From the IMG/VR virus record IMGVR_UViG_3300045988_159394, positions 1-41,957 of that record: DNA of 41,957 bases; one strand, 5' to 3'. Of this stretch, positions 1-41,957 are shown piece by piece. A program made the position numbers and the translations under genes. Source of the DNA: a virus. The stretch's first letter is position 1; each line of letters opens with the position of its first letter. Under the pieces are notes generated by a model. It did not search any database. It was given only the letters and a program-made list of their open reading frames with translations, and was not told the origin of the DNA.

Positions 1-534
1 ACCTGGGAAGATATAGACTTCAAGAAGAATGTGGTCAAGGTATCAAAAACACTCTACAATCCGACGAATAACGCTGAAAAATATGAGCTTCTCCCTCCAA
101 AAACTGAAACGTCGGTCCGGGTCGTCACCATGCCGGCACACCTGGAAAAGGTACTGGCGGCATTCAAGTTCCAAGTCTCTAAACTCCGGATGGAATATAA
201 AGAGTTGTGGCACTATCCCAATGGCAGTAAACTGGGCTTCGTTTTTACGGCTCCGGCCCATCCTGGCCATCCTCTTACCCAGCGTCTCGTACAGACTCGT
301 ATAGACCGCATTCAGCGGCTTATGGATAATCCGGTGAGCCTTCACATACATCCTCACATTTTTCGTCATACCCATGCTTCCCTGCTGGCAGAGGCCGGGA
401 TAGACCTGGTACAAATCATGAAACGCTTAGGCCATGCCGACGATACGACGACACGACAGATATATCTGCACATCACAAAAACGCTGGCCACGGAAACGGC
501 AGAAAAGTTTGATGACCTGTTAAACAAAGCATAA
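1..534 (+). CDS. Tyrosine integrase, C-terminal part (in-frame continuation of the ORF that starts at 41194; about 392 aa in total across the circular junction)
   Basis: Position 1 is in frame with the ORF at 41194..41957 through the 119-nt terminal overlap. Catalytic boxes present: RIGEALAL, HIFRHTHASLL, LGH, RQIY. Stop TAA at 532-534. Confidence 0.9.
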   Translation, partial: TWEDIDFKKNVVKVSKTLYNPTNNAEKYELLPPKTETSVRVVTMPAHLEKVLAAFKFQVSKLRMEYKELWHYPNGSKLGFVFTAPAHPGHPLTQRLVQTRIDRIQRLMDNPVSLHIHPHIFRHTHASLLAEAGIDLVQIMKRLGHADDTTTRQIYLHITKTLATETAEKFDDLLNKA

Positions 535-2528: not shown

Positions 2529-3013
2529 TATTTATCACTCCCTTCTGTCGCCGCTGTAAGTTCAGCAGTGATAGCATCACTTTGCTCTTTGTAATATGCG
2601 TTCAAGTCCGAGTATTCGCTTTGAATGCCGGCAGCAGTATCAGTATCGCCGTTTAGATTTGCGACAAGCAGCGATTGCCCTAATTCTTGTTGTGCTGATG
2701 TATATTCTGCCTCAAGCGCCGCCTGCTTACTCGTTGCGATTTCTTCAGCGGTTGGTTCTGGCGGAACGTATTCTACTGGTTTTCCTGTATTTGTATCCCT
2801 TACATGCCCATTTAAATATTGAATGAAATCATCTGCCGTGATAATTTCAGCAATGGCAACATCTTTCGAGGTTGCTTTGACCTTATCAAGCAATTCTGCT
2901 TTTTTGCCCGTATTTTTTTCTTTATCCGGATTGAAATCACAAATCAAGCTGCACACTCTTTTGCCATCTTTGTCAAAACCTGCAGCGTAGTAATCGACAT
3001 TTGTACCTGTCAT
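2528..3013 (-). CDS. Hypothetical phage protein (XkdW-position, 161 aa)
   Basis: ORF track; position between the fibre region and the XkdX-like small gene in a PBSX-like layout. Confidence 0.5.
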   Translation of the reverse strand: MTGTNVDYYAAGFDKDGKRVCSLICDFNPDKEKNTGKKAELLDKVKATSKDVAIAEIITADDFIQYLNGHVRDTNTGKPVEYVPPEPTAEEIATSKQAALEAEYTSAQQELGQSLLVANLNGDTDTAAGIQSEYSDLNAYYKEQSDAITAELTAATEGSDK

Positions 3014-3031
3014 CTTTCTACCTACCCCTTT

Positions 3032-4135
3032 CTAAATTAAGTTAATGGTATAGATAAGTTCAGCCAGCGTTTTATGCGTGTACACCCGCTTTGTTATGCC
3101 GTCCTGCTGATGCCCCAATATCATTTTCACGCATACGTCATTAGCTCCGGCAGAATTTAACAGGCTGGCACATGTATGCCTTGTCTCATGCAAGGTATGC
3201 ACCAGCCCAAGCCGTTTTAGCGCTTTTTCGTACCGCTCGTGATAAGATGTATAGCTGTACTTTTTTCCGGCCCGGTTAAGCACAAATATGTTTTTATCCT
3301 GGCAACGTGTCTCCCAGAATGGCAAAACTTTTTCGGCAATCGGAACGTGACGGTTCCTGCCCGCAGCCGTTTTGCTATCCCGTACTAGAAACCATCGTTC
3401 CGGAAGATGCACGTCCACAACCTTTAGCGCCAGTAGCTCGCCAATACGGACGCCGCAGTAAATCAACATAAGGATTTCCTGAATAGCCTCATCGTCCGTA
3501 TGCCCCCAGAGAAGGTCGATTTCTTCACGGCTATACGGCCGCTTCTTGTATACCGGGATGTTCTTCCCCAGTTCTAAGTACTGTGCGTAATTTTTATCTA
3601 CGATATCAGTCTTGCAAGCGTACTCATACAGCTGATATAGCAGTGTTTTGACTTTCTTCTGGCTGGAATATGACAATCCTTTTTCTCGTACTTTGTCCAT
3701 CACCGCCTGGATTTGCTTATATCGAACATCGATGAAAGACATCCTCCAGAGGTCTGAGCAATACGCATAAGCTGACTCATAACTTGTTTTTGAACTACTG
3801 CCGATCATGGGCCATTTTTCCTGTTTCCATTCGTGATACAGCTCTTCGAATGTCGGGCCGTCGGCTTTCGACCGAACAAACTTGCCACCGTTGAGCTTAA
3901 GCAGATACCTGAACGCCTCCTCCCGTGTTTCAAAACTGCCGAGATATTTCTGCCTGCCTTCAATACTTTTGCATATCGCATATGGTTTGCGGCGGTTGCC
4001 ACCCATTTTGCGAATGCATCCAAACCCGTTAGGCAACCGCATAGCCTCACCTCCTTTTATAATTTCTTCCGCGACCATCGTAAGGTCGTCAATAATGCTA
4101 CTAATTTCGGTGCATACGATTTTCCAATTTTCCAT
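3032..4135 (-). CDS. Second tyrosine recombinase (lambda-Int-like, with an AP2-like arm-binding N-domain), nested between the lysis and tail-fibre genes
   Basis: N-terminal RLPNGFGCIRKMGGNRRKPYA...GSFETREEAFRYL (Integrase_AP2-like). Catalytic GVRIGELLAL, HETRHTCASLL, ILGH, RVYTH. RBS GGAGG-10nt-ATG; an alternative GTG start at 4141. Confidence 0.85.
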   Translation of the reverse strand: MENWKIVCTEISSIIDDLTMVAEEIIKGGEAMRLPNGFGCIRKMGGNRRKPYAICKSIEGRQKYLGSFETREEAFRYLLKLNGGKFVRSKADGPTFEELYHEWKQEKWPMIGSSSKTSYESAYAYCSDLWRMSFIDVRYKQIQAVMDKVREKGLSYSSQKKVKTLLYQLYEYACKTDIVDKNYAQYLELGKNIPVYKKRPYSREEIDLLWGHTDDEAIQEILMLIYCGVRIGELLALKVVDVHLPERWFLVRDSKTAAGRNRHVPIAEKVLPFWETRCQDKNIFVLNRAGKKYSYTSYHERYEKALKRLGLVHTLHETRHTCASLLNSAGANDVCVKMILGHQQDGITKRVYTHKTLAELIYTINLI

Positions 4136-4159
4136 AGCCACTAAGCCTCCTTCGTGGCT

Positions 4160-4394
4160 ATGCTACATCAAAAATTTTAGACAGTGGGCAAATGTAACAG
4201 CAAAGACGACGCCAACGGAAATTTCTTTACCTTTAGCCGCAACATACCTGAAGTCTGTCGGCGGCATCCAAAATGGCCCTATTACCGGGATAACCTTCTC
4301 CGTTTATTACTCTGACTCGAAGCTCTGGGCAGTATCCAGTAACTCAGATCCGGGAGCAAACATCAATGTCATAGTGATTTGCGTTAAGGCTTAA
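4160..4394 (+). pseudogene. Start-less, inverted paralogue of the 99-aa fibre-tip gene (silent cassette). It begins with a degenerate copy of the fibre 5' end.
   Basis: Plus-strand frame open to TAA at 4392-4394 with no usable start. ...KSVGGIQNGPITGITFSV... aligns with TSGGVYDAINNGITISV of the 99-aa protein. ATGCTACATCAAAAATTTTAGAC at about 4160 resembles ATGGCTACTAAATTTTTAGAT, the 5' end of 5097..5396. Confidence 0.45.
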
Positions 4395-4410
4395 ACAGTG
4401 GGGAAGATGC

Positions 4411-4611
4411 ATGAGCGAAACATTTAACGGATATTCCATTGCTTTTAATACGGAACCCATCGTAATAGGGGTGCATTACGGTACACAGACAGATGTTAAC
4501 GTCGTAGCATCAAGCGCATTGGGTACAAGCGGGCTTTTAAATTGCTATTTTTTCCACGCTAATCATGATTCTGATAAGGTATCAGTAAACTGGATAGCAA
4601 TAGGTCTATAG
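4411..4611 (+). CDS. 66-aa protein, truncated paralogue of the C-terminus of the 161-aa protein; ends ...NWIAIGL
   Basis: ORF track. The C-terminus HANHDSDKVSVNWIAIGL matches GSNSDDSMDAYWIAIGL of 4606..5091. Weak RBS. Confidence 0.45.
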   Translation: MSETFNGYSIAFNTEPIVIGVHYGTQTDVNVVASSALGTSGLLNCYFFHANHDSDKVSVNWIAIGL

Positions 4612-4627
4612 GCCAATAGCTATCCAG
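4590..4627. repeat. 38-bp imperfect palindrome with two abutting TAG stops at its centre (CTA|TAG), shared by the two convergent ORFs
   Basis: ctggatagcaataggtcta|taggccaatagctatccag. The 9-bp outer arms are perfect; 16/19 positions match overall. Confidence 0.8.
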
Positions 4628-5091
4628 TATGCATCCATGCTATCATCACTATTACTCCCGACATCGAGCGTAAAGCCCCCTAACGTGTCATTTTCCCTGG
4701 GCTTGGATTCATAAAATGCTGTTCCTTGGTGATTTGTAATAATTACTCGATACGAGGTAAACATTATTGGGAACGATACCCATCCATGAGTGCTATTTCC
4801 CCACTGTATAATTAGGCCGCCAAAAAGTGAACCAAAGCAAAGATATCCACTCGTACCAGTCAGGTATTTTACTCCGGTCGCATCCAGTACCAGCTTTACG
4901 ATTTTAGCCGCAAAAGAATCAGATGACAGTGTGCTGATCAGGCTGCCGAGCGTCGTGCTGGCCAGGGTATTCACGATGCCCTGGTTCCAGTCCGTGACCT
5001 GAGCTACTTCGGTTTCCGGATGAATGGTATCATACGATTTTGTCGTTTTATTCCAGTGATGTAAAATGCCTTTTAAAATGCTCATTTTCAT
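4606..5091 (-). CDS. 161-aa protein downstream of the 99-aa fibre paralogue (candidate fibre-tip partner or assembly chaperone); ends ...YWIAIGL
   Basis: ORF track. The likely real start is the second ATG (5083-5085), which has AGGAGGA 7 nt upstream. Confidence 0.6.
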   Translation of the reverse strand: MKMSILKGILHHWNKTTKSYDTIHPETEVAQVTDWNQGIVNTLASTTLGSLISTLSSDSFAAKIVKLVLDATGVKYLTGTSGYLCFGSLFGGLIIQWGNSTHGWVSFPIMFTSYRVIITNHQGTAFYESKPRENDTLGGFTLDVGSNSDDSMDAYWIAIGL

Positions 5092-5096
5092 TCCTC

Positions 5097-5396
5097 CTAT
5101 TCGCTGACTTCAAGCCAAAGTGTGTTCTGGTCGGTCGGCTCTGTGCCGCCGACGTACAAATCTTCTGTCGGCACTTCTATCCATGTGCTGGATCCAGCAG
5201 ATGCTTCGACGCTTATCGTGATGCCGTTATTAATCGCATCGTATACACCGCCGCTGGTGACGGGGTTGGTACTGCCAGACGTGGGCTTGCTGTCGAACGT
5301 CAATTTATCCTGCTTTGCCGCAATCAGTGTCTTAATCTTACTGACTGCATATTTCAGCCCGGCCGCATCTAAAAATTTAGTAGCCATTTCCCTCAC
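5097..5396 (-). CDS. Short tail-fibre paralogue (99 aa) sharing the N-terminus MATKFLDxxGLKY with the 312-aa fibre
   Basis: MATKFLDAAGLKY versus MATKFLDLDGLKY. The 5' DNA ATGGCTACTAAATTTTTAGAT matches the 312-aa gene's ATGGCAACGAAATTCTTAGAT. Confidence 0.65.
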   Translation of the reverse strand: MREMATKFLDAAGLKYAVSKIKTLIAAKQDKLTFDSKPTSGSTNPVTSGGVYDAINNGITISVEASAGSSTWIEVPTEDLYVGGTEPTDQNTLWLEVSE

Positions 5397-5399
5397 CGC

Positions 5400-6338
5400 C
5401 TAAGCAAAGCATGTATCAATTTCAGTCTGACTCAGCGCCGAGTAGGTGACTATGCTGGATGAATTTGCCGGCGTATATCCGAGGGCTGCTGTGACATTAG
5501 CTGACGTCAGCGAGACGACGCCGGACGACACGGTAATGTTGCTTCCAATTTTCACCCCCCCTAAAACGCTGGAAGTAGCTGCCGGCAATGTGTAGTTACT
5601 GAGCCCGGCCAGCTTATTTTTTTCGGCCGTCGTGTAGTCATTCGTGCTGAGTCCTTTGCCACTGACTTTCTTGACGTAAGTCGTCGAAATCGTGTTGCCA
5701 TCGCCATCACGGACGGCTTTATCGGCAGTGCTAACGGCGTCGTTGAGCAGGACATAGGCGGTTCCAGTCCATCTGTATACGTCCTTATCCGTACCACCGA
5801 TATCCAGATATAATGTGTTTTCTGCTCCGGTGATTTCTGTTGTATGAGCTGCTTCTTTGTAAAATTTTCCGCCGCTGTAATAGCCTTCAACCGCCTGTCC
5901 AATGTCACCTGGTATATACTGCGTCGGGATTTTGCCGTCAGATCCGAGCGGGGCAACGCCGTTTGCCGTACCGATGAGCGATGTAGCGATACGTGCTGTG
6001 CTATCCGTAGCGTGAATAGTAATGTTTGCCGAGCCATCAAAACTAACCCCGTTGATAGTCCGTGCTGTTGCCAGCTTTGCCGCCGTATCGGCTGCACCGG
6101 CAGTCGATGCTTTTGCGCCGATTCCAAGGTAGGTTTTTGCCGCATCTGTTTTAGTCAAATAGATACTCGTTGCATCGGTTTTACTCAACTTCGTATTATC
6201 ATTAATCGTGATACCCGTTTTATTGAGTGCGACGCCGTTAATTGTAATGCCCTGGGGTACATATTTTCCGTCGTTCGCCGCATCCATTTTATTTTTAAAA
6301 TATTTCAGGCCGTCGAGATCTAAGAATTTCGTTGCCAT
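5400..6338 (-). CDS. Tail fibre protein (312 aa) with KGLSTNDYT-type repeat
   Basis: Repeats LSKTDATSIYLTKTDAAKTYL and GLSTNDYTTAEKNKL typical of Firmicute prophage fibres; located in the tail module. Confidence 0.7.
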   Translation of the reverse strand: MATKFLDLDGLKYFKNKMDAANDGKYVPQGITINGVALNKTGITINDNTKLSKTDATSIYLTKTDAAKTYLGIGAKASTAGAADTAAKLATARTINGVSFDGSANITIHATDSTARIATSLIGTANGVAPLGSDGKIPTQYIPGDIGQAVEGYYSGGKFYKEAAHTTEITGAENTLYLDIGGTDKDVYRWTGTAYVLLNDAVSTADKAVRDGDGNTISTTYVKKVSGKGLSTNDYTTAEKNKLAGLSNYTLPAATSSVLGGVKIGSNITVSSGVVSLTSANVTAALGYTPANSSSIVTYSALSQTEIDTCFA

Positions 6339-6347
6339 ATTTTCCTC

Positions 6348-6656
6348 CTAAAAAATCGCATCAATATCCATATTTAAGATTGTATCTGCCAATGCGTCTT
6401 TTCCAGCCGGCCCTTGTGGGCCGACTGGTCCTTGTGGCCCAGTATCTCCCTTCGGACCTTTTATATCCACCGGGGCTGGATTATCCCGGCCGCCGTCATT
6501 GGTCCAAGATAATATGCCGTCATCCGTGATGTGTGGCGTATAGACTGTCCCTTTAGCCCCGGCCATGCCTACACCTACGGTTAGGGTATTCCCAGCGCTC
6601 AGACAAGCGGACAACGCAGGCGACCGTGCTGTAAGCACAGCCTGTAGTTTATTCAT
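6348..6656 (-). CDS. Collagen-like (G-X-Y) repeat protein, about 102 aa
   Basis: GPKGDTGPQGPVGPQGPAGK. Start placed at MNKLQ, preceded by AGGAGGTGG. The ORF track's longer frame is 6348..6830. Confidence 0.6.
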   Translation of the reverse strand: MNKLQAVLTARSPALSACLSAGNTLTVGVGMAGAKGTVYTPHITDDGILSWTNDGGRDNPAPVDIKGPKGDTGPQGPVGPQGPAGKDALADTILNMDIDAIF

Positions 6657-41193: not shown

Positions 41194-41957
41194 ATGCACG
41201 TTTACAAAAAGCCGTCAGGGCTATGGGCCTATAAAATTGACATTGGTAAAAACCCCCGAACTGGGAAACGGCAGCAGAAAGAAAAAGGTGGTTTTAAGCG
41301 GGCAAAGGATGCCAGGATAGCTGGTGAAGAAGCACTGCAGCGGTATCGGAACAAGGGCTTTGCACGCCCGGAAGCGGTGACGTTTGGCGATTTTGCCCAG
41401 GAATGGCTGAAGGCATACGCGGTTTCCGCCAAAATATCATCCGTCCGGATCCGGAAGCATCAGCTGGGGCACCTCAACCGGTACTTTGAAAAAATCCCTA
41501 TCCAGGGAATCCATAAGAAGCAATACCAGGACGCCTTATTGTCCCTTGCAAAGACGCTTGCTCCTAATACTATTTCAGGGATTCATGCCACGGCCAAAAT
41601 GATTTTCAAACGGGCCATAGAATATGAGCTTATCTATTCAGACCCGACGGAGTTTGCTACAGTACCCCGGCCAAAGCGGAAAATCGTAGATCCAGACGAA
41701 AATGTGCCCGCCTATCTGGAAAAGTCTCAGCTTCTCGATTTCCTGCAAACAGCCAAAGAAAAAGGAATCACGCCCGATTATCCTTTATTTATGCTTCTGG
41801 CTTATACGGGCTTGCGGATTGGAGAGGCCCTGGCTCTCACCTGGGAAGATATAGACTTCAAGAAGAATGTGGTCAAGGTATCAAAAACACTCTACAATCC
41901 GACGAATAACGCTGAAAAATATGAGCTTCTCCCTCCAAAAACTGAAACGTCGGTCCG
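41194..41957 (+). CDS. Tyrosine integrase, N-terminal part (AP2-like arm-binding domain); continues at window position 1
   Basis: RBS AAGGAGGT-5nt-ATG. MHVYKKPSGLWAYKIDIGKNPRTGKRQQKEKGGFKRAKDARIAGEEAL. In frame with 1..534. Confidence 0.9.
   Translation, partial: MHVYKKPSGLWAYKIDIGKNPRTGKRQQKEKGGFKRAKDARIAGEEALQRYRNKGFARPEAVTFGDFAQEWLKAYAVSAKISSVRIRKHQLGHLNRYFEKIPIQGIHKKQYQDALLSLAKTLAPNTISGIHATAKMIFKRAIEYELIYSDPTEFATVPRPKRKIVDPDENVPAYLEKSQLLDFLQTAKEKGITPDYPLFMLLAYTGLRIGEALALTWEDIDFKKNVVKVSKTLYNPTNNAEKYELLPPKTETSV
41839..41957. repeat. Terminal redundancy: these bases duplicate positions 1..119 exactly, marking the window as a circular genome
   Basis: Exact 119-nt identity read directly from the sequence. 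Confidence 0.95.

What the first reader, a model, noticed from the sequence alone, without database searches (positions are those of the whole stretch)
4142..4394. Start-less inverted homologue of the fibre-tip gene, preceded by a decayed copy of the fibre 5' end, immediately upstream of the nested recombinase
The plus-strand frame ending at 4394 has no start codon, yet it encodes …KSVGGIQNGPITGITFSVYYSDSKLWAV…, which aligns with …TSGGVYDAINNGITISVEASAGSSTWIEV… of the 99-aa minus-strand gene. Its 5' flank (about 4160-4190) resembles ATGGCTACTAAATTTTTAGATGCGG, but with indels and an in-frame stop in that reading. Its stop-to-next-start spacing (4394 to 4411) mirrors that of the active pair (5097 to 5085/5091). 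This is what a silent, fusion-dependent variable cassette looks like. Alternatively it is a pseudogenised duplicate.
Basis: partly seen in the sequence, partly recalled or inferred. Interest (0 to 1): 0.65.

Follow-up and report, generated by a model that had tools for sequence, protein, structure and literature searches.

The report
Silent tail-fibre-tip cassette of a phage shufflon
The start-less reading frame is a spare receptor-binding tip that a neighbouring tyrosine recombinase can flip onto the end of a small tail-fibre gene, a known kind of phage host-range switch seen here in a family of gut Megasphaera-type phages for which I found no published description.

Summary
Its partner gene and its fusion site were both misidentified.

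- **Not related to the 99-aa gene.** The alignment scores z=1.5, and the "decayed fibre 5' end" is a 10/11 A/T-rich match.
- **What X is.** X (4182-4394) is one of two promoterless C-terminal cassettes. The other is c66 (4396-4611). Both belong to the 159-aa tip gene (4606-5085, minus strand).
- **The site.** Each cassette begins in frame at a 13-nt site, TAnACAGTGGGnA. It occurs three times in the window: 4177-4193 (+), 4391-4407 (+) and 4795-4811 (-). The last lies inside the expressed gene and encodes the invariant Gln-Trp.
- **The enzyme.** A tyrosine recombinase (3032-4135, minus strand) distinct from the phage's integrase sits 46 nt away.
- **X is expressed elsewhere.** A metagenomic protein, P0001, carries a related N-terminus fused to a C-terminus identical to X in 70 of 70 residues.
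- **Shuffling seen in relatives.** One related 32.9-kb contig, assembled from four sequencing runs, occurs as four isomers with breakpoints at these sites.
- **Spread.** Dozens of related phage loci carry arrays of 2-15 core copies followed by a homologous recombinase.

No isomer of this window's own phage was found. The closest known system is the Rin shufflon of Bifidobacterium prophages, so this is a new member of a known kind.

The parts
4182..4394 (+). Silent cassette X: 70 codons plus TAA, read in frame from the CAG-TGG of site s1 (QWANVTAKTT...NVIVICVKA*). It is an alternative C-terminal receptor-binding tip for the 159-aa gene.
   Evidence: P0001 is a related N-terminus joined to a C-terminus 70/70 identical to X. 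L001-L003 carry X in the expressed position, and the DNA from 4181 to 4402 is identical. In the AF2 model of P0001, residues 70-163 have pLDDT of about 90, and the best PDB match is 4mtm, the gp53 tail fibre. X fits the family pattern of LP(L/I) about 12 residues after QW and a hydrophobic (I/V)x(I/V)(G/C) end.
4177..4193 (+). Crossover site s1 (TTAGACAGTGGGCAAAT; core ACAGTGGG at 4181-4188). It is the distal end of the shufflon, 46 nt from the recombinase ATG.
   Evidence: the repeat finder D20 and I5; pattern statistics; site logo from 241 unique sites. C at position +8 is rare (1%), but L001's expressed site carries it, so this variant has recombined before.
4391..4407 (+). Crossover site s2 (TTAAACAGTGGGGAAGA; core 4395-4402). 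Its TAA is the stop codon of X.
   Evidence: The tract identical to L001 ends inside this core.
4396..4611 (+). Silent cassette c66: 71 codons plus TAG, read from site s2 (QWGRCMSETF...VNWIAIGL*). The called '66-aa ORF' (ATG 4411) lies inside it.
   Evidence: Significant similarity to the expressed tip (z=5.5, 0 of 1000 shuffles). Pfam Gp53-like_C at E 9e-4, 20.1 bits, below the 24.9-bit cut-off. 95.8% identical to the expressed cassette of the divergent phage L105.
4795..4811 (-). Expression site s3 (TTATACAGTGGGGAAAT on the minus strand; core 4800-4807), inside the tip gene, encoding Ile-Ile-Gln-Trp-Gly.
   Evidence: the repeat finder I5 and I7. Homology between L001-L003 and the window switches strand exactly here. 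Q94 and W95 are invariant in 64 family members.
4606..5085 (-). Expressed tail-fibre-tip gene (159 aa = P0002). The constant part is 4807-5085 (93 aa); the currently expressed variable cassette is 4606-4806 (66 aa plus stop).
   Evidence: Pfam Gp53-like_C at E 3.8e-8, above the cut-off. A family profile hits PDB 4mtm at E 2.7e-6. 954 homologues share a constant N-terminus and a hypervariable C-terminus.
3032..4135 (-). Tyrosine recombinase, the candidate shufflon invertase (367 aa from ATG 4135; a second possible start is ATG 4042, which has a strong RBS).
   Evidence: Pfam Phage_integrase at E 2.8e-20. 38-40% identical end to end to the recombinases next to the shufflons of L019 and L014 (E 3e-79 and 5e-85); similar to the phage's own 392-aa integrase only around the catalytic motif. 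R, K, HxxR, H and Y residues can be read directly in the sequence. Homologues follow the last site in 41 related loci.
4133..4162 (-). Hairpin in the recombinase leader. The Shine-Dalgarno sequence is in the loop and the AUG is in the 3' arm.
   Evidence: the repeat finder I11. RNA fold of -21 kcal/mol, z=-5.9. Conserved in L047, L075 and L077 with one compensatory C:G to U:A pair.
4589..4628 (.). 20+20-nt palindrome where the two convergent cassettes meet. Both end in ...WIAIGL*, and their stop codons overlap in CTATAG.
   Evidence: the repeat finder I2; translations.

Best explanation
The stretch 4177-4394 is a promoterless, start-less C-terminal cassette, analogous to an 'Rv' cassette of the Rin system. 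It belongs to a three-site DNA-inversion shufflon that acts on the 159-aa tail-fibre-tip gene of a Megasphaera-type temperate myophage.

**Layout.** The expressed gene (4606-5085, minus strand) has a constant 93-residue N-terminal stalk. This is followed by Gln-Trp, encoded by the crossover site (core ACAGTGGG), and then by a tip domain of about 65-70 residues with a gp53-like / R-pyocin-foot-like fold. Two alternative tips, c66 and X, lie head to tail on the opposite strand. Each starts at an inverted copy of the site, and each ends with a stop codon that overlaps the next element.

**Proposed mechanism (inferred).** The adjacent tyrosine recombinase (3032-4135) would exchange strands within the shared core.
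- Inversion between s3 and s2 flips 4403-4799 and yields N-terminus+c66 (164 aa).
- Inversion between s3 and s1 flips 4189-4799 and yields N-terminus+X (163 aa).
- Each virion population would then carry one of three receptor-binding tips, which would change host range.

**Shown here**
- The sites, frames and cassette structure.
- X and c66 are expressed tips in other phages.
- Relatives undergo inversion, permutation and deletion exactly at these sites.
- A homologous recombinase is always adjacent.

**Inferred**
- This recombinase is the catalyst.
- Inversion still happens in this particular phage.
- The tips determine receptor specificity.
For: 1. The site TAnACAGTGGGnA occurs 3 times within 634 nt, against 0.52 expected in the whole window.
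2. Reading from CAG-TGG gives open frames of 70, 71 and 66 codons. Across 463 such sites with a stop in related loci, the in-frame length is 60-89 codons in 363.
3. A search with the hypothetical fusion N-terminus+X found P0001 (163 aa; 99% of the query covered). Its C-terminus is 70/70 identical to X.
4. In the contigs that encode P0001, homology to the window runs 6652 to 4795 at 74-76% identity. It then jumps to 4177 to 4408 on the other strand at 98.7%. The 17-nt overlap between the two pieces is the site.
5. P0005, P0010, P0032 and P0041 share an identical 96-aa N-terminus joined to four different C-termini. They lie on 32,855-bp contigs from four runs of one study. The flanks are 100% identical, and the inner 1.3-1.5 kb is the same set of segments permuted and inverted, with breakpoints at site copies.
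6. Two M. hexanoica assemblies differ by an exact 1,563-bp deletion between two directly repeated sites.
7. Most of the 85 related loci fetched (6 isolate genomes, 79 IMG/VR contigs) carry arrays of 2-15 core copies. In the loci where a recombinase follows the array, the last site is almost always inverted relative to the expression site. 41 loci have a homologous recombinase 46-420 nt beyond it.
8. Position +9 of the site is A in 100% of 241 unique sites, although it is a third codon position of Gly. That points to a constraint on the DNA, not only on the protein.
9. The window phage has a separate 392-aa integrase with an arm-binding domain.
10. The model of the X-bearing protein is confident over the tip, and its best PDB match is the AP22 gp53 fibre.
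Against: - No isomer of this exact phage was found. All 15 ENA contigs that encode its tip protein have the window's arrangement. No protein with its exact N-terminus and another tip appeared among the top hits.
- Those assemblies are low coverage (about 3x) and give only the majority form. The parental junction is itself absent from IMG/VR, so the negative junction scans say little.
- Site s1 carries a rare C at position +8 (1% of sites).
- X has no Pfam or PHROG hit and no significant pairwise similarity to the other two tips. Its assignment to the fold rests on P0001's context and on a predicted structure.
- The recombinase's closest annotated relatives (about 30-33% identity) are ordinary phage integrases. 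Its invertase role is inferred from position alone.
Confidence: 0.85

Rival explanations
1. Frozen shufflon. X is an intact cassette, but in this phage lineage the system no longer inverts, so X is a silent relic on its way to decay. Possible causes are the s1 variant or tight repression of the recombinase.
For: Only one arrangement appears in 15 contigs from several samples. s1 has the rare GGGC variant. The recombinase AUG sits inside a stable hairpin. This lineage's arrays are short, at 2-3 sites.
Against: The X DNA is 100% identical to an expressed copy, and both silent frames are open. The recombinase frame is intact, with catalytic residues present. The GGGC variant sits in L001's expression site, so it has recombined. 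Consensus assemblies hide minority isomers.
Confidence: 0.2
2. X is an inverted homologue of the 99-aa gene and would be expressed by fusion to that gene's 5' end, through a degenerate copy of ATGGCTACTAAATTTTTAGATGCGG at 4160-4190.
For: There is a weak local alignment (GG..NGITxSV) and a 10/11 A/T-rich match. The 312-aa and 96-aa genes do share a 39-nt 5' repeat (D1).
Against: The protein alignment gives z=1.5, and 85-92 of 1000 shuffles reach its score. The DNA match is reached by 1% of random stretches of the window. X is found fused to the N-terminus of the 159-aa family, not to the 96-aa family. In L001-L003 the 96-aa gene is intact and separate, upstream of the X-bearing gene.
Confidence: 0.02
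3. Pseudogenised duplicate or non-coding leader. The stretch is a decaying gene copy, or simply the promoter and 5' UTR of the recombinase, with no coding function.
For: There is no start codon, no promoter-like site on the plus strand and no Pfam or PHROG hit for X. The 4142-4176 portion really is the recombinase leader, with a conserved hairpin.
Against: The 70-codon frame is open (chance about 0.025). It is identical in amino acids and DNA to a copy expressed in three independent metagenomes and folds confidently. The lack of a start codon and promoter is the defining feature of shufflon cassettes.
Confidence: 0.03

Closest known systems
Rin shufflon of Bifidobacterium (and Eggerthella) prophages (Mavrich et al. 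2018, PMC6109161; PMC8778435)
   Same: A phage-encoded tyrosine recombinase lies next to a receptor-binding-protein gene that has a constant 5' part (Rc). Several promoterless 3' cassettes (Rv) follow, each preceded by a short asymmetric crossover site. Inversions at those sites swap the C-terminus. The cassettes are very dissimilar from one another. The recombinase is distinct from the prophage integrase.
   Different: - Site sequence: TAnACAGTGGGGA here, against the 11-bp rix TTCCCTAACCC, which is absent from the window.
- Target: a 159-aa gp53-like / pyocin-foot-like tip on a contractile-tail, Mu/P2-type baseplate phage. Rin acts on a TP901-1-like RBP of siphophages.
- Hosts: Negativicutes, not Actinobacteria.
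- Recombinase: Rin is described as XerD-like and lacking an arm-binding domain. This one has about 100 extra N-terminal residues, and its relatives include ordinary integrases. Orthology to Rin was not tested.
- Array size: up to 15 core copies in relatives.
Tail-fibre shufflon of BV01-like Phocaeicola vulgatus phages (preprint PMC13596623)
   Same: A multi-cassette shufflon overlaps the distal end of a tail-fibre gene and is flanked by a recombinase. All configurations were seen in read data.
   Different: The motif there is the 10-bp TGGGAGAACT, absent here. The host phylum and the fibre protein differ. That system has three cassettes and six isoforms.
Gin/Cin/Pin/Min tail-fibre inversion systems (Mu, P1, e14, p15B)
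   Same: The logic is the same: a constant 5' fibre segment, inverted alternative 3' segments, and the invertase gene placed just outside the invertible DNA. Min of p15B is a multi-site shufflon.
   Different: Those use serine recombinases with 26-bp sites and a Fis-dependent enhancer. They also swap a downstream assembly chaperone gene along with the fibre end. Here the enzyme is a tyrosine recombinase (Pfam Phage_integrase) and only about 65-70 codons are swapped, with no chaperone gene.
R64/IncI1 plasmid shufflon (Rci recombinase, sfx sites, PilV tips)
   Same: A tyrosine recombinase acts at multiple short asymmetric sites with an identical core. The sites lie in frame at the constant/variable junction of an adhesin gene, and convergent cassette pairs are arranged tail to tail.
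   Different: The target there is a conjugative-pilus adhesin, not a phage fibre, and the site sequences are unrelated. From my own knowledge, Rci is reported to avoid deletion between direct sites, whereas a site-to-site deletion is seen here in M. hexanoica.

Membership tests
Tyrosine-recombinase phage tail-fibre shufflon (Rin-like kind) | A tyrosine-family recombinase is encoded next to the cassettes and is distinct from the phage integrase | tested here: met
   Pfam Phage_integrase at E 2.8e-20. The gene starts 46 nt from the last site. A separate 392-aa integrase carries Arm-DNA-bind_4.
Tyrosine-recombinase phage tail-fibre shufflon (Rin-like kind) | One expressed gene with a constant 5' part, plus promoterless and start-less alternative 3' cassettes | tested here: met
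   Across 64 homologues the N-terminus is constant up to invariant Q94-W95 and hypervariable after it. X and c66 are open frames that begin at the site. No promoter-like site lies upstream of them on the plus strand.
Tyrosine-recombinase phage tail-fibre shufflon (Rin-like kind) | A short repeated crossover site precedes every cassette, inverted relative to the copy in the expressed gene | tested here: met
   Three copies are present: two on the plus strand and one on the minus strand. The logo comes from 241 unique sites.
Tyrosine-recombinase phage tail-fibre shufflon (Rin-like kind) | Inversions are observed, with breakpoints at the sites | tested here: inconclusive
   Met in relatives: four isomers of one 32.9-kb contig, L016 versus L017, and a deletion in M. 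hexanoica. Not observed for the window's own phage.
Rin family proper (orthology to Bifidobacterium Rin and rix) | The rix site TTCCCTAACCC, and an armless XerD-like Rin recombinase | tested here: not met
   The rix motif is absent from the window. Here the recombinase's Pfam catalytic-domain match covers residues 223-358, with about 220 residues ahead of it. Direct comparison with a Rin sequence was not possible with these tools.
Serine invertase systems (Gin/Cin/Pin/Min) | A serine recombinase (resolvase/invertase domain) | tested here: not met
   The only recombinase in 3000-6400 is of the tyrosine type.
Gp53-like_C tail-fibre tip domain (Pfam PF21882; PDB 4mtm) | A sequence or structure match to the domain | tested here: met
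   - Expressed tip: 34.2 bits, above the 24.9 cut-off.
- Family profile against 4mtm: E 2.7e-6.
- c66: 20.1 bits, below the cut-off.
- X: no HMM hit, but the model of P0001 matches 4mtm best (Foldseek E 1.2e-5, probability 1.00).
Diversity-generating retroelement (Mtd-type) | A reverse transcriptase with a template/variable repeat pair | not tested
   The only link is a Pfam Mtd_N match on the upstream fibre genes of the M. hexanoica relative. Nothing in 3000-6400 resembles a reverse transcriptase.

The most novel reading that the evidence does not exclude
The sites may do more than invert DNA within one genome. They may also act as exchange points that move single tip cassettes between different phages, in an integron-like trade in receptor-binding modules.

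- The X DNA (4181-4402) is 100% identical between this phage and L001, although their constant regions are only 77% identical.
- In five independent pairs of diverged phages, the near-identical tract starts at one site core and ends at the next, with random-level identity on both sides.
- Deletion between direct sites, seen in M. hexanoica, would release a circle carrying one site. That is the intermediate such traffic would need.
Probability: 0.3. Interest if true: 0.7.

Novelty: new member of a known kind. Interest (0 to 1): 0.45.

Why it matters
It corrects the annotation of a whole class of 'hypothetical 60-70-aa ORFs' and start-less frames downstream of tail genes in gut Negativicutes phages. 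They are spare receptor-binding tips.

The family is large. 954 proteins match at E<=0.001, at least 142 IMG/VR contigs encode a relative, and hosts include Megasphaera, Allisonella and Acidaminococcus. Some arrays carry up to 15 core copies. These phages can therefore present many host-range variants from one genome.

This has practical consequences:
- Host prediction from the tail-fibre sequence will depend on which isomer was assembled.
- Metagenome assembly is affected. About a quarter of the related IMG/VR contigs end at the expression site.
- The short, defined site plus a compact recombinase could serve as a tool for swapping fibre tips.

The cassette-bounded identity between diverged phages hints at a way that receptor-binding modules spread horizontally.

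Tried and rejected
- **Homology of X to the 99-aa gene, the 312-aa fibre, or the other two tips by pairwise alignment.** None is significant. X's identity had to come from context (P0001) and from structure.
- **Pfam, PHROG and NCBIfam on X.** No hits.
- **blastn and tblastn against GenBank phages.** No match for the region or for the tip protein. The recombinase's hits there are ordinary integrases of Butyrivibrio and Fusobacterium phages, so family membership alone does not prove an invertase role.
- **Scans for recombinant junctions of this phage.** The first pattern found only other phages that share the site. The 'expressed tip now silent' pattern found nothing in IMG/VR or in JGI metagenomes. 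The parental junction is also absent from IMG/VR, so these negatives are uninformative.
- **Promoter and terminator scan of 2900-5500.** Nothing above the shuffled expectation.
- **Rfam on 3800-5200.** Nothing.
- **Site conservation as a mere by-product of the protein motif IIQWG.** Rejected. A third codon position is invariant, the silent copies keep T/A at -3/-2 where no Ile is encoded, and rearrangement breakpoints fall on the sites.
- **Literature.** No paper in the searchable library mentions both Megasphaera and a shufflon, and none of those listed for the Negativicutes search contains the word 'shufflon'.

Full report
**1. Context**

The window is a circular phage genome with a 119-nt terminal overlap, and ENA contigs bridge its two ends. 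On the minus strand it carries Mu/P2-like baseplate genes. Downstream of them lie several small fibre genes, in this order:
- a 197-aa gene;
- a 105-aa gene;
- a 102-aa collagen-like gene;
- a 312-aa gene at 5400-6338;
- a 96/99-aa gene at 5097-5387/5396;
- a 159-aa gene at 4606-5085 (161 aa from the upstream ATG at 5091).

Next comes a tyrosine recombinase at 3032-4135, followed by the holin and amidase genes. A separate 392-aa integrase with an arm-binding domain spans the window's ends. The finding, 4142-4394, lies between the fibre genes and the nested recombinase, on the plus strand.

**2. Checking the observation**

The frame ending at TAA 4392-4394 is open and has no credible start. The rest does not:
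- The alignment to the 99-aa protein is not significant. The score is 34, z=1.5, and 85-92 of 1000 shuffles do as well.
- The supposed decayed copy of the fibre 5' end reduces to a 10/11 match, AAAATTTTAGA. 1% of random 64-nt stretches of the window equal it.
- The spacing argument fails. The ATG at 4411 is an internal Met of another cassette.

**3. What is really there**

The repeat finder showed a motif present three times:
- 4177-4193 (+), TTAGACAGTGGGCAAAT;
- 4391-4407 (+), TTAAACAGTGGGGAAGA;
- 4795-4811 (-), TTATACAGTGGGGAAAT.

As TAnACAGTGGGnA, this is 3 hits against 0.52 expected, and 0 of 100 shuffles reach 3.

The minus-strand copy lies inside the 159-aa gene and encodes Ile-Ile-Gln-Trp-Gly. 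Reading each copy in frame from CAG-TGG gives three open frames:
- expressed tip: QWGNSTHGW...AYWIAIGL* (66 codons);
- c66: QWGRCMSETF...VNWIAIGL* (71 codons);
- X: QWANVTAKTT...NVIVICVKA* (70 codons).

The stop codon of X is the TAA of the next site. The two convergent frames overlap at CTATAG, which produces the palindrome at 4589-4628.

c66 is significantly similar to the expressed tip (z=5.5). Both match Pfam Gp53-like_C, at 34.2 and 20.1 bits against a cut-off of 24.9. X matches nothing by pairwise or HMM comparison.

**4. Is X a real tip?**

I searched the protein database with the hypothetical fusion N-terminus(1-95)+X.
- The best hit, P0001 (163 aa), covers 99% of the query. It has a related N-terminus and a C-terminus 70/70 identical to X.
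- It is encoded on three contigs from three ENA samples, L001-L003.
- blastn of these against the window runs antiparallel from 6652 to 4795 at 74-76% identity. It then switches strand to 4177-4408 at 98.7%. The two pieces overlap by 17 nt, which is the site.
- The only three mismatches lie in the site flanks (4180, 4403, 4406). The DNA from 4181 to 4402 is therefore identical.
- c66 is likewise 95.8% identical to the expressed cassette of a far more divergent phage, L105.

An AlphaFold model of P0001 is confident over residues 70-163, with pLDDT of about 90, and is beta-rich. Its best PDB matches are the AP22 gp53 tail fibre (4mtm, E 1.2e-5) and the R1/R2 pyocin fibre feet. A profile of the family also hits 4mtm by sequence at E 2.7e-6. 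That alignment includes GLIIQWG and the WIAI ending.

**5. Do these sites recombine?**

- *Isomers of one phage.* P0005, P0010, P0032 and P0041 share an identical 96-residue N-terminus with four different tips. They lie on 32,855-bp contigs from four runs of one study. The flanks are 100% identical. The inner 1.3-1.5 kb is the same set of segments permuted and inverted, and every breakpoint falls at a site copy.
- *Deletion.* Two M. hexanoica assemblies differ by an exact 1,563-bp deletion between two direct copies.
- *Cassette flip between related phages.* L016 and L017 are 86-88% identical in backbone. They share one cassette at 98.5% in flipped relative orientation.
- *Arrays across the family.* Most of the 85 related loci (Megasphaera, Allisonella and Acidaminococcus genomes, plus IMG/VR contigs) carry 2-15 copies of the core. 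The usual pattern is '+...+ -...-'. In loci where a recombinase follows the array, the last copy is almost always inverted relative to the expression site.
- *Adjacent recombinase.* 41 loci have a recombinase homologous to the window's, or to those of L019 and L014, 46-420 nt beyond the last site.
- *Assembly breaks.* About 19 of the 79 IMG/VR contigs end within about 130 nt of the expression site. That is what a mixed population of isomers does to an assembly graph.

The site logo from 241 unique sites is T(-3) A(-2) n ACAGTGGG G(+8, 80%) A(+9, 100%). Position +9 is a third codon position, so the DNA itself is constrained. Hybrid expression sites keep the left half (TTAT) while the right half varies (GGGGAC, GGGGAA, GGATAT, GGGCAA). 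This places strand exchange within ACAGTGG.

**6. The recombinase**

It is 38-40% identical over its full length to the shufflon-adjacent recombinases of L019 and L014. It resembles the phage's own integrase only around the catalytic motif. R (GVRIGE), K (SKTAAG), HxxR (HETRH), H (LGHQ) and Y (RVYTH) are all present.

In the window-type lineage (L047, L075, L077; 88-93% identity) the gene lies on the same strand as the fibre genes and starts 46-47 nt after the last site. In most other loci it lies on the opposite strand.

Its leader forms a hairpin with the Shine-Dalgarno sequence in the loop and the AUG in the stem (-21 kcal/mol, z=-5.9). The hairpin is conserved, with one compensatory pair. 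This is what occupies 4142-4176 of the finding. A second candidate start, ATG 4042 with RBS AAGGAGGTG, aligns with the start of the homologues.

**7. Mechanism proposed**

- Inversion between s3 and s2 would give N-terminus+c66 (164 aa).
- Inversion between s3 and s1 would give N-terminus+X (163 aa).
- The window shows the '+ - -' ground state.

That the recombinase is the catalyst, that inversion still occurs in this phage, and that the tips set host range are all inferences. All 15 contigs of this phage show one arrangement. The junction scans were negative but uninformative.

**8. Comparison with what is known**

The Rin shufflon of Bifidobacterium prophages is the same kind of device: a tyrosine invertase, Rc/Rv segments and an 11-bp rix site (PMC6109161). 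It has also been reported in Eggerthella prophages. A BV01-like Phocaeicola phage shufflon has been described recently. Gin, Cin and Min use serine invertases.

The present system differs in site sequence, fibre domain, phage morphotype, host phylum and array size. The recombinase lineage probably differs as well.

I found no paper that links Megasphaera or other Negativicutes phages with a shufflon. No GenBank phage carries the tip protein. I therefore rate it a new member of a known kind.

**9. An additional observation**

In five independent pairs of phages whose constant regions are only 73-90% identical, a single cassette is 97-100% identical. The identity begins at one site core and ends at the next. 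This suggests cassette-level horizontal exchange. Whether it happens by site-specific recombination between genomes is open.

Noticed in passing
window 4133-4162 (minus-strand RNA); also L047, L075, L077: A stable hairpin (-21 kcal/mol, z=-5.9) encloses the recombinase's Shine-Dalgarno sequence in its loop and its AUG in the 3' arm. It is conserved in three related loci with one compensatory C:G to U:A change. It may throttle translation of the invertase.
   Followed up: partly
window 4042 versus 4135: The recombinase has two plausible starts. ATG 4135 gives 367 aa, and its 31-aa extension is conserved in L047, L075 and L077. ATG 4042 has a canonical AAGGAGGTG ribosome-binding site and coincides with the start of the L019 and L014 homologues.
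   Followed up: partly
window 4181-4402 versus L001 2412-2633; also L027/L034, L038/L065, L038/L043, L050/L057: Single cassettes are 97-100% identical between phages whose constant regions are only 73-90% identical. The identity starts and stops at the site cores, which suggests that individual tip cassettes are exchanged horizontally.
   Followed up: partly
L014 versus L015 (M. hexanoica CP011940.1 and CP171361.1): The two assemblies differ by an exact deletion (L015 6289-7851) between two directly repeated sites. So the system, or the assembler, also removes cassettes. L015 has 10 site copies.
   Followed up: yes
IMG/VR loci L044, L048, L058, L059, L061, L067, L068, L078, L080-L082, L086, L089, L092, L094, L097, L099, L102 and others: About 19 of the 79 related viral contigs end within about 130 nt of the expression site, and several more end at other site copies. 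This is a signature of assembly breaks caused by mixed isomers.
   Followed up: partly
window 5349-5387 and 6300-6338: The 312-aa and 96-aa fibre genes share a 39-nt 5' repeat at 79% identity, encoding MATKFLD..GLKY. In M. hexanoica the equivalent genes match Pfam Mtd_N. This is probably a common N-terminal attachment motif and not a recombination site.
   Followed up: no
window 1-119 and 41839-41957: A 119-nt terminal direct repeat is present, and contigs L004 and L006 bridge the ends. The window is therefore a circularly assembled genome of about 41.8 kb. A 392-aa integrase spans the junction.
   Followed up: yes
L027 (Megasphaera sp. WILCCON 0056), L091: These are very large arrays. L027 has 15 copies of the core over about 4.2 kb and L091 has 12, which implies a dozen or more alternative tips in one prophage.
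   Followed up: no
window 4589-4628: A 20+20-nt palindrome with no spacer lies where the two convergent cassettes end (...WIAIGL* on both strands, with stops overlapping in CTATAG). In the late transcript it would form a hairpin right at the stop codon of the tip gene. A possible effect on read-through into the recombinase was not tested.
   Followed up: no
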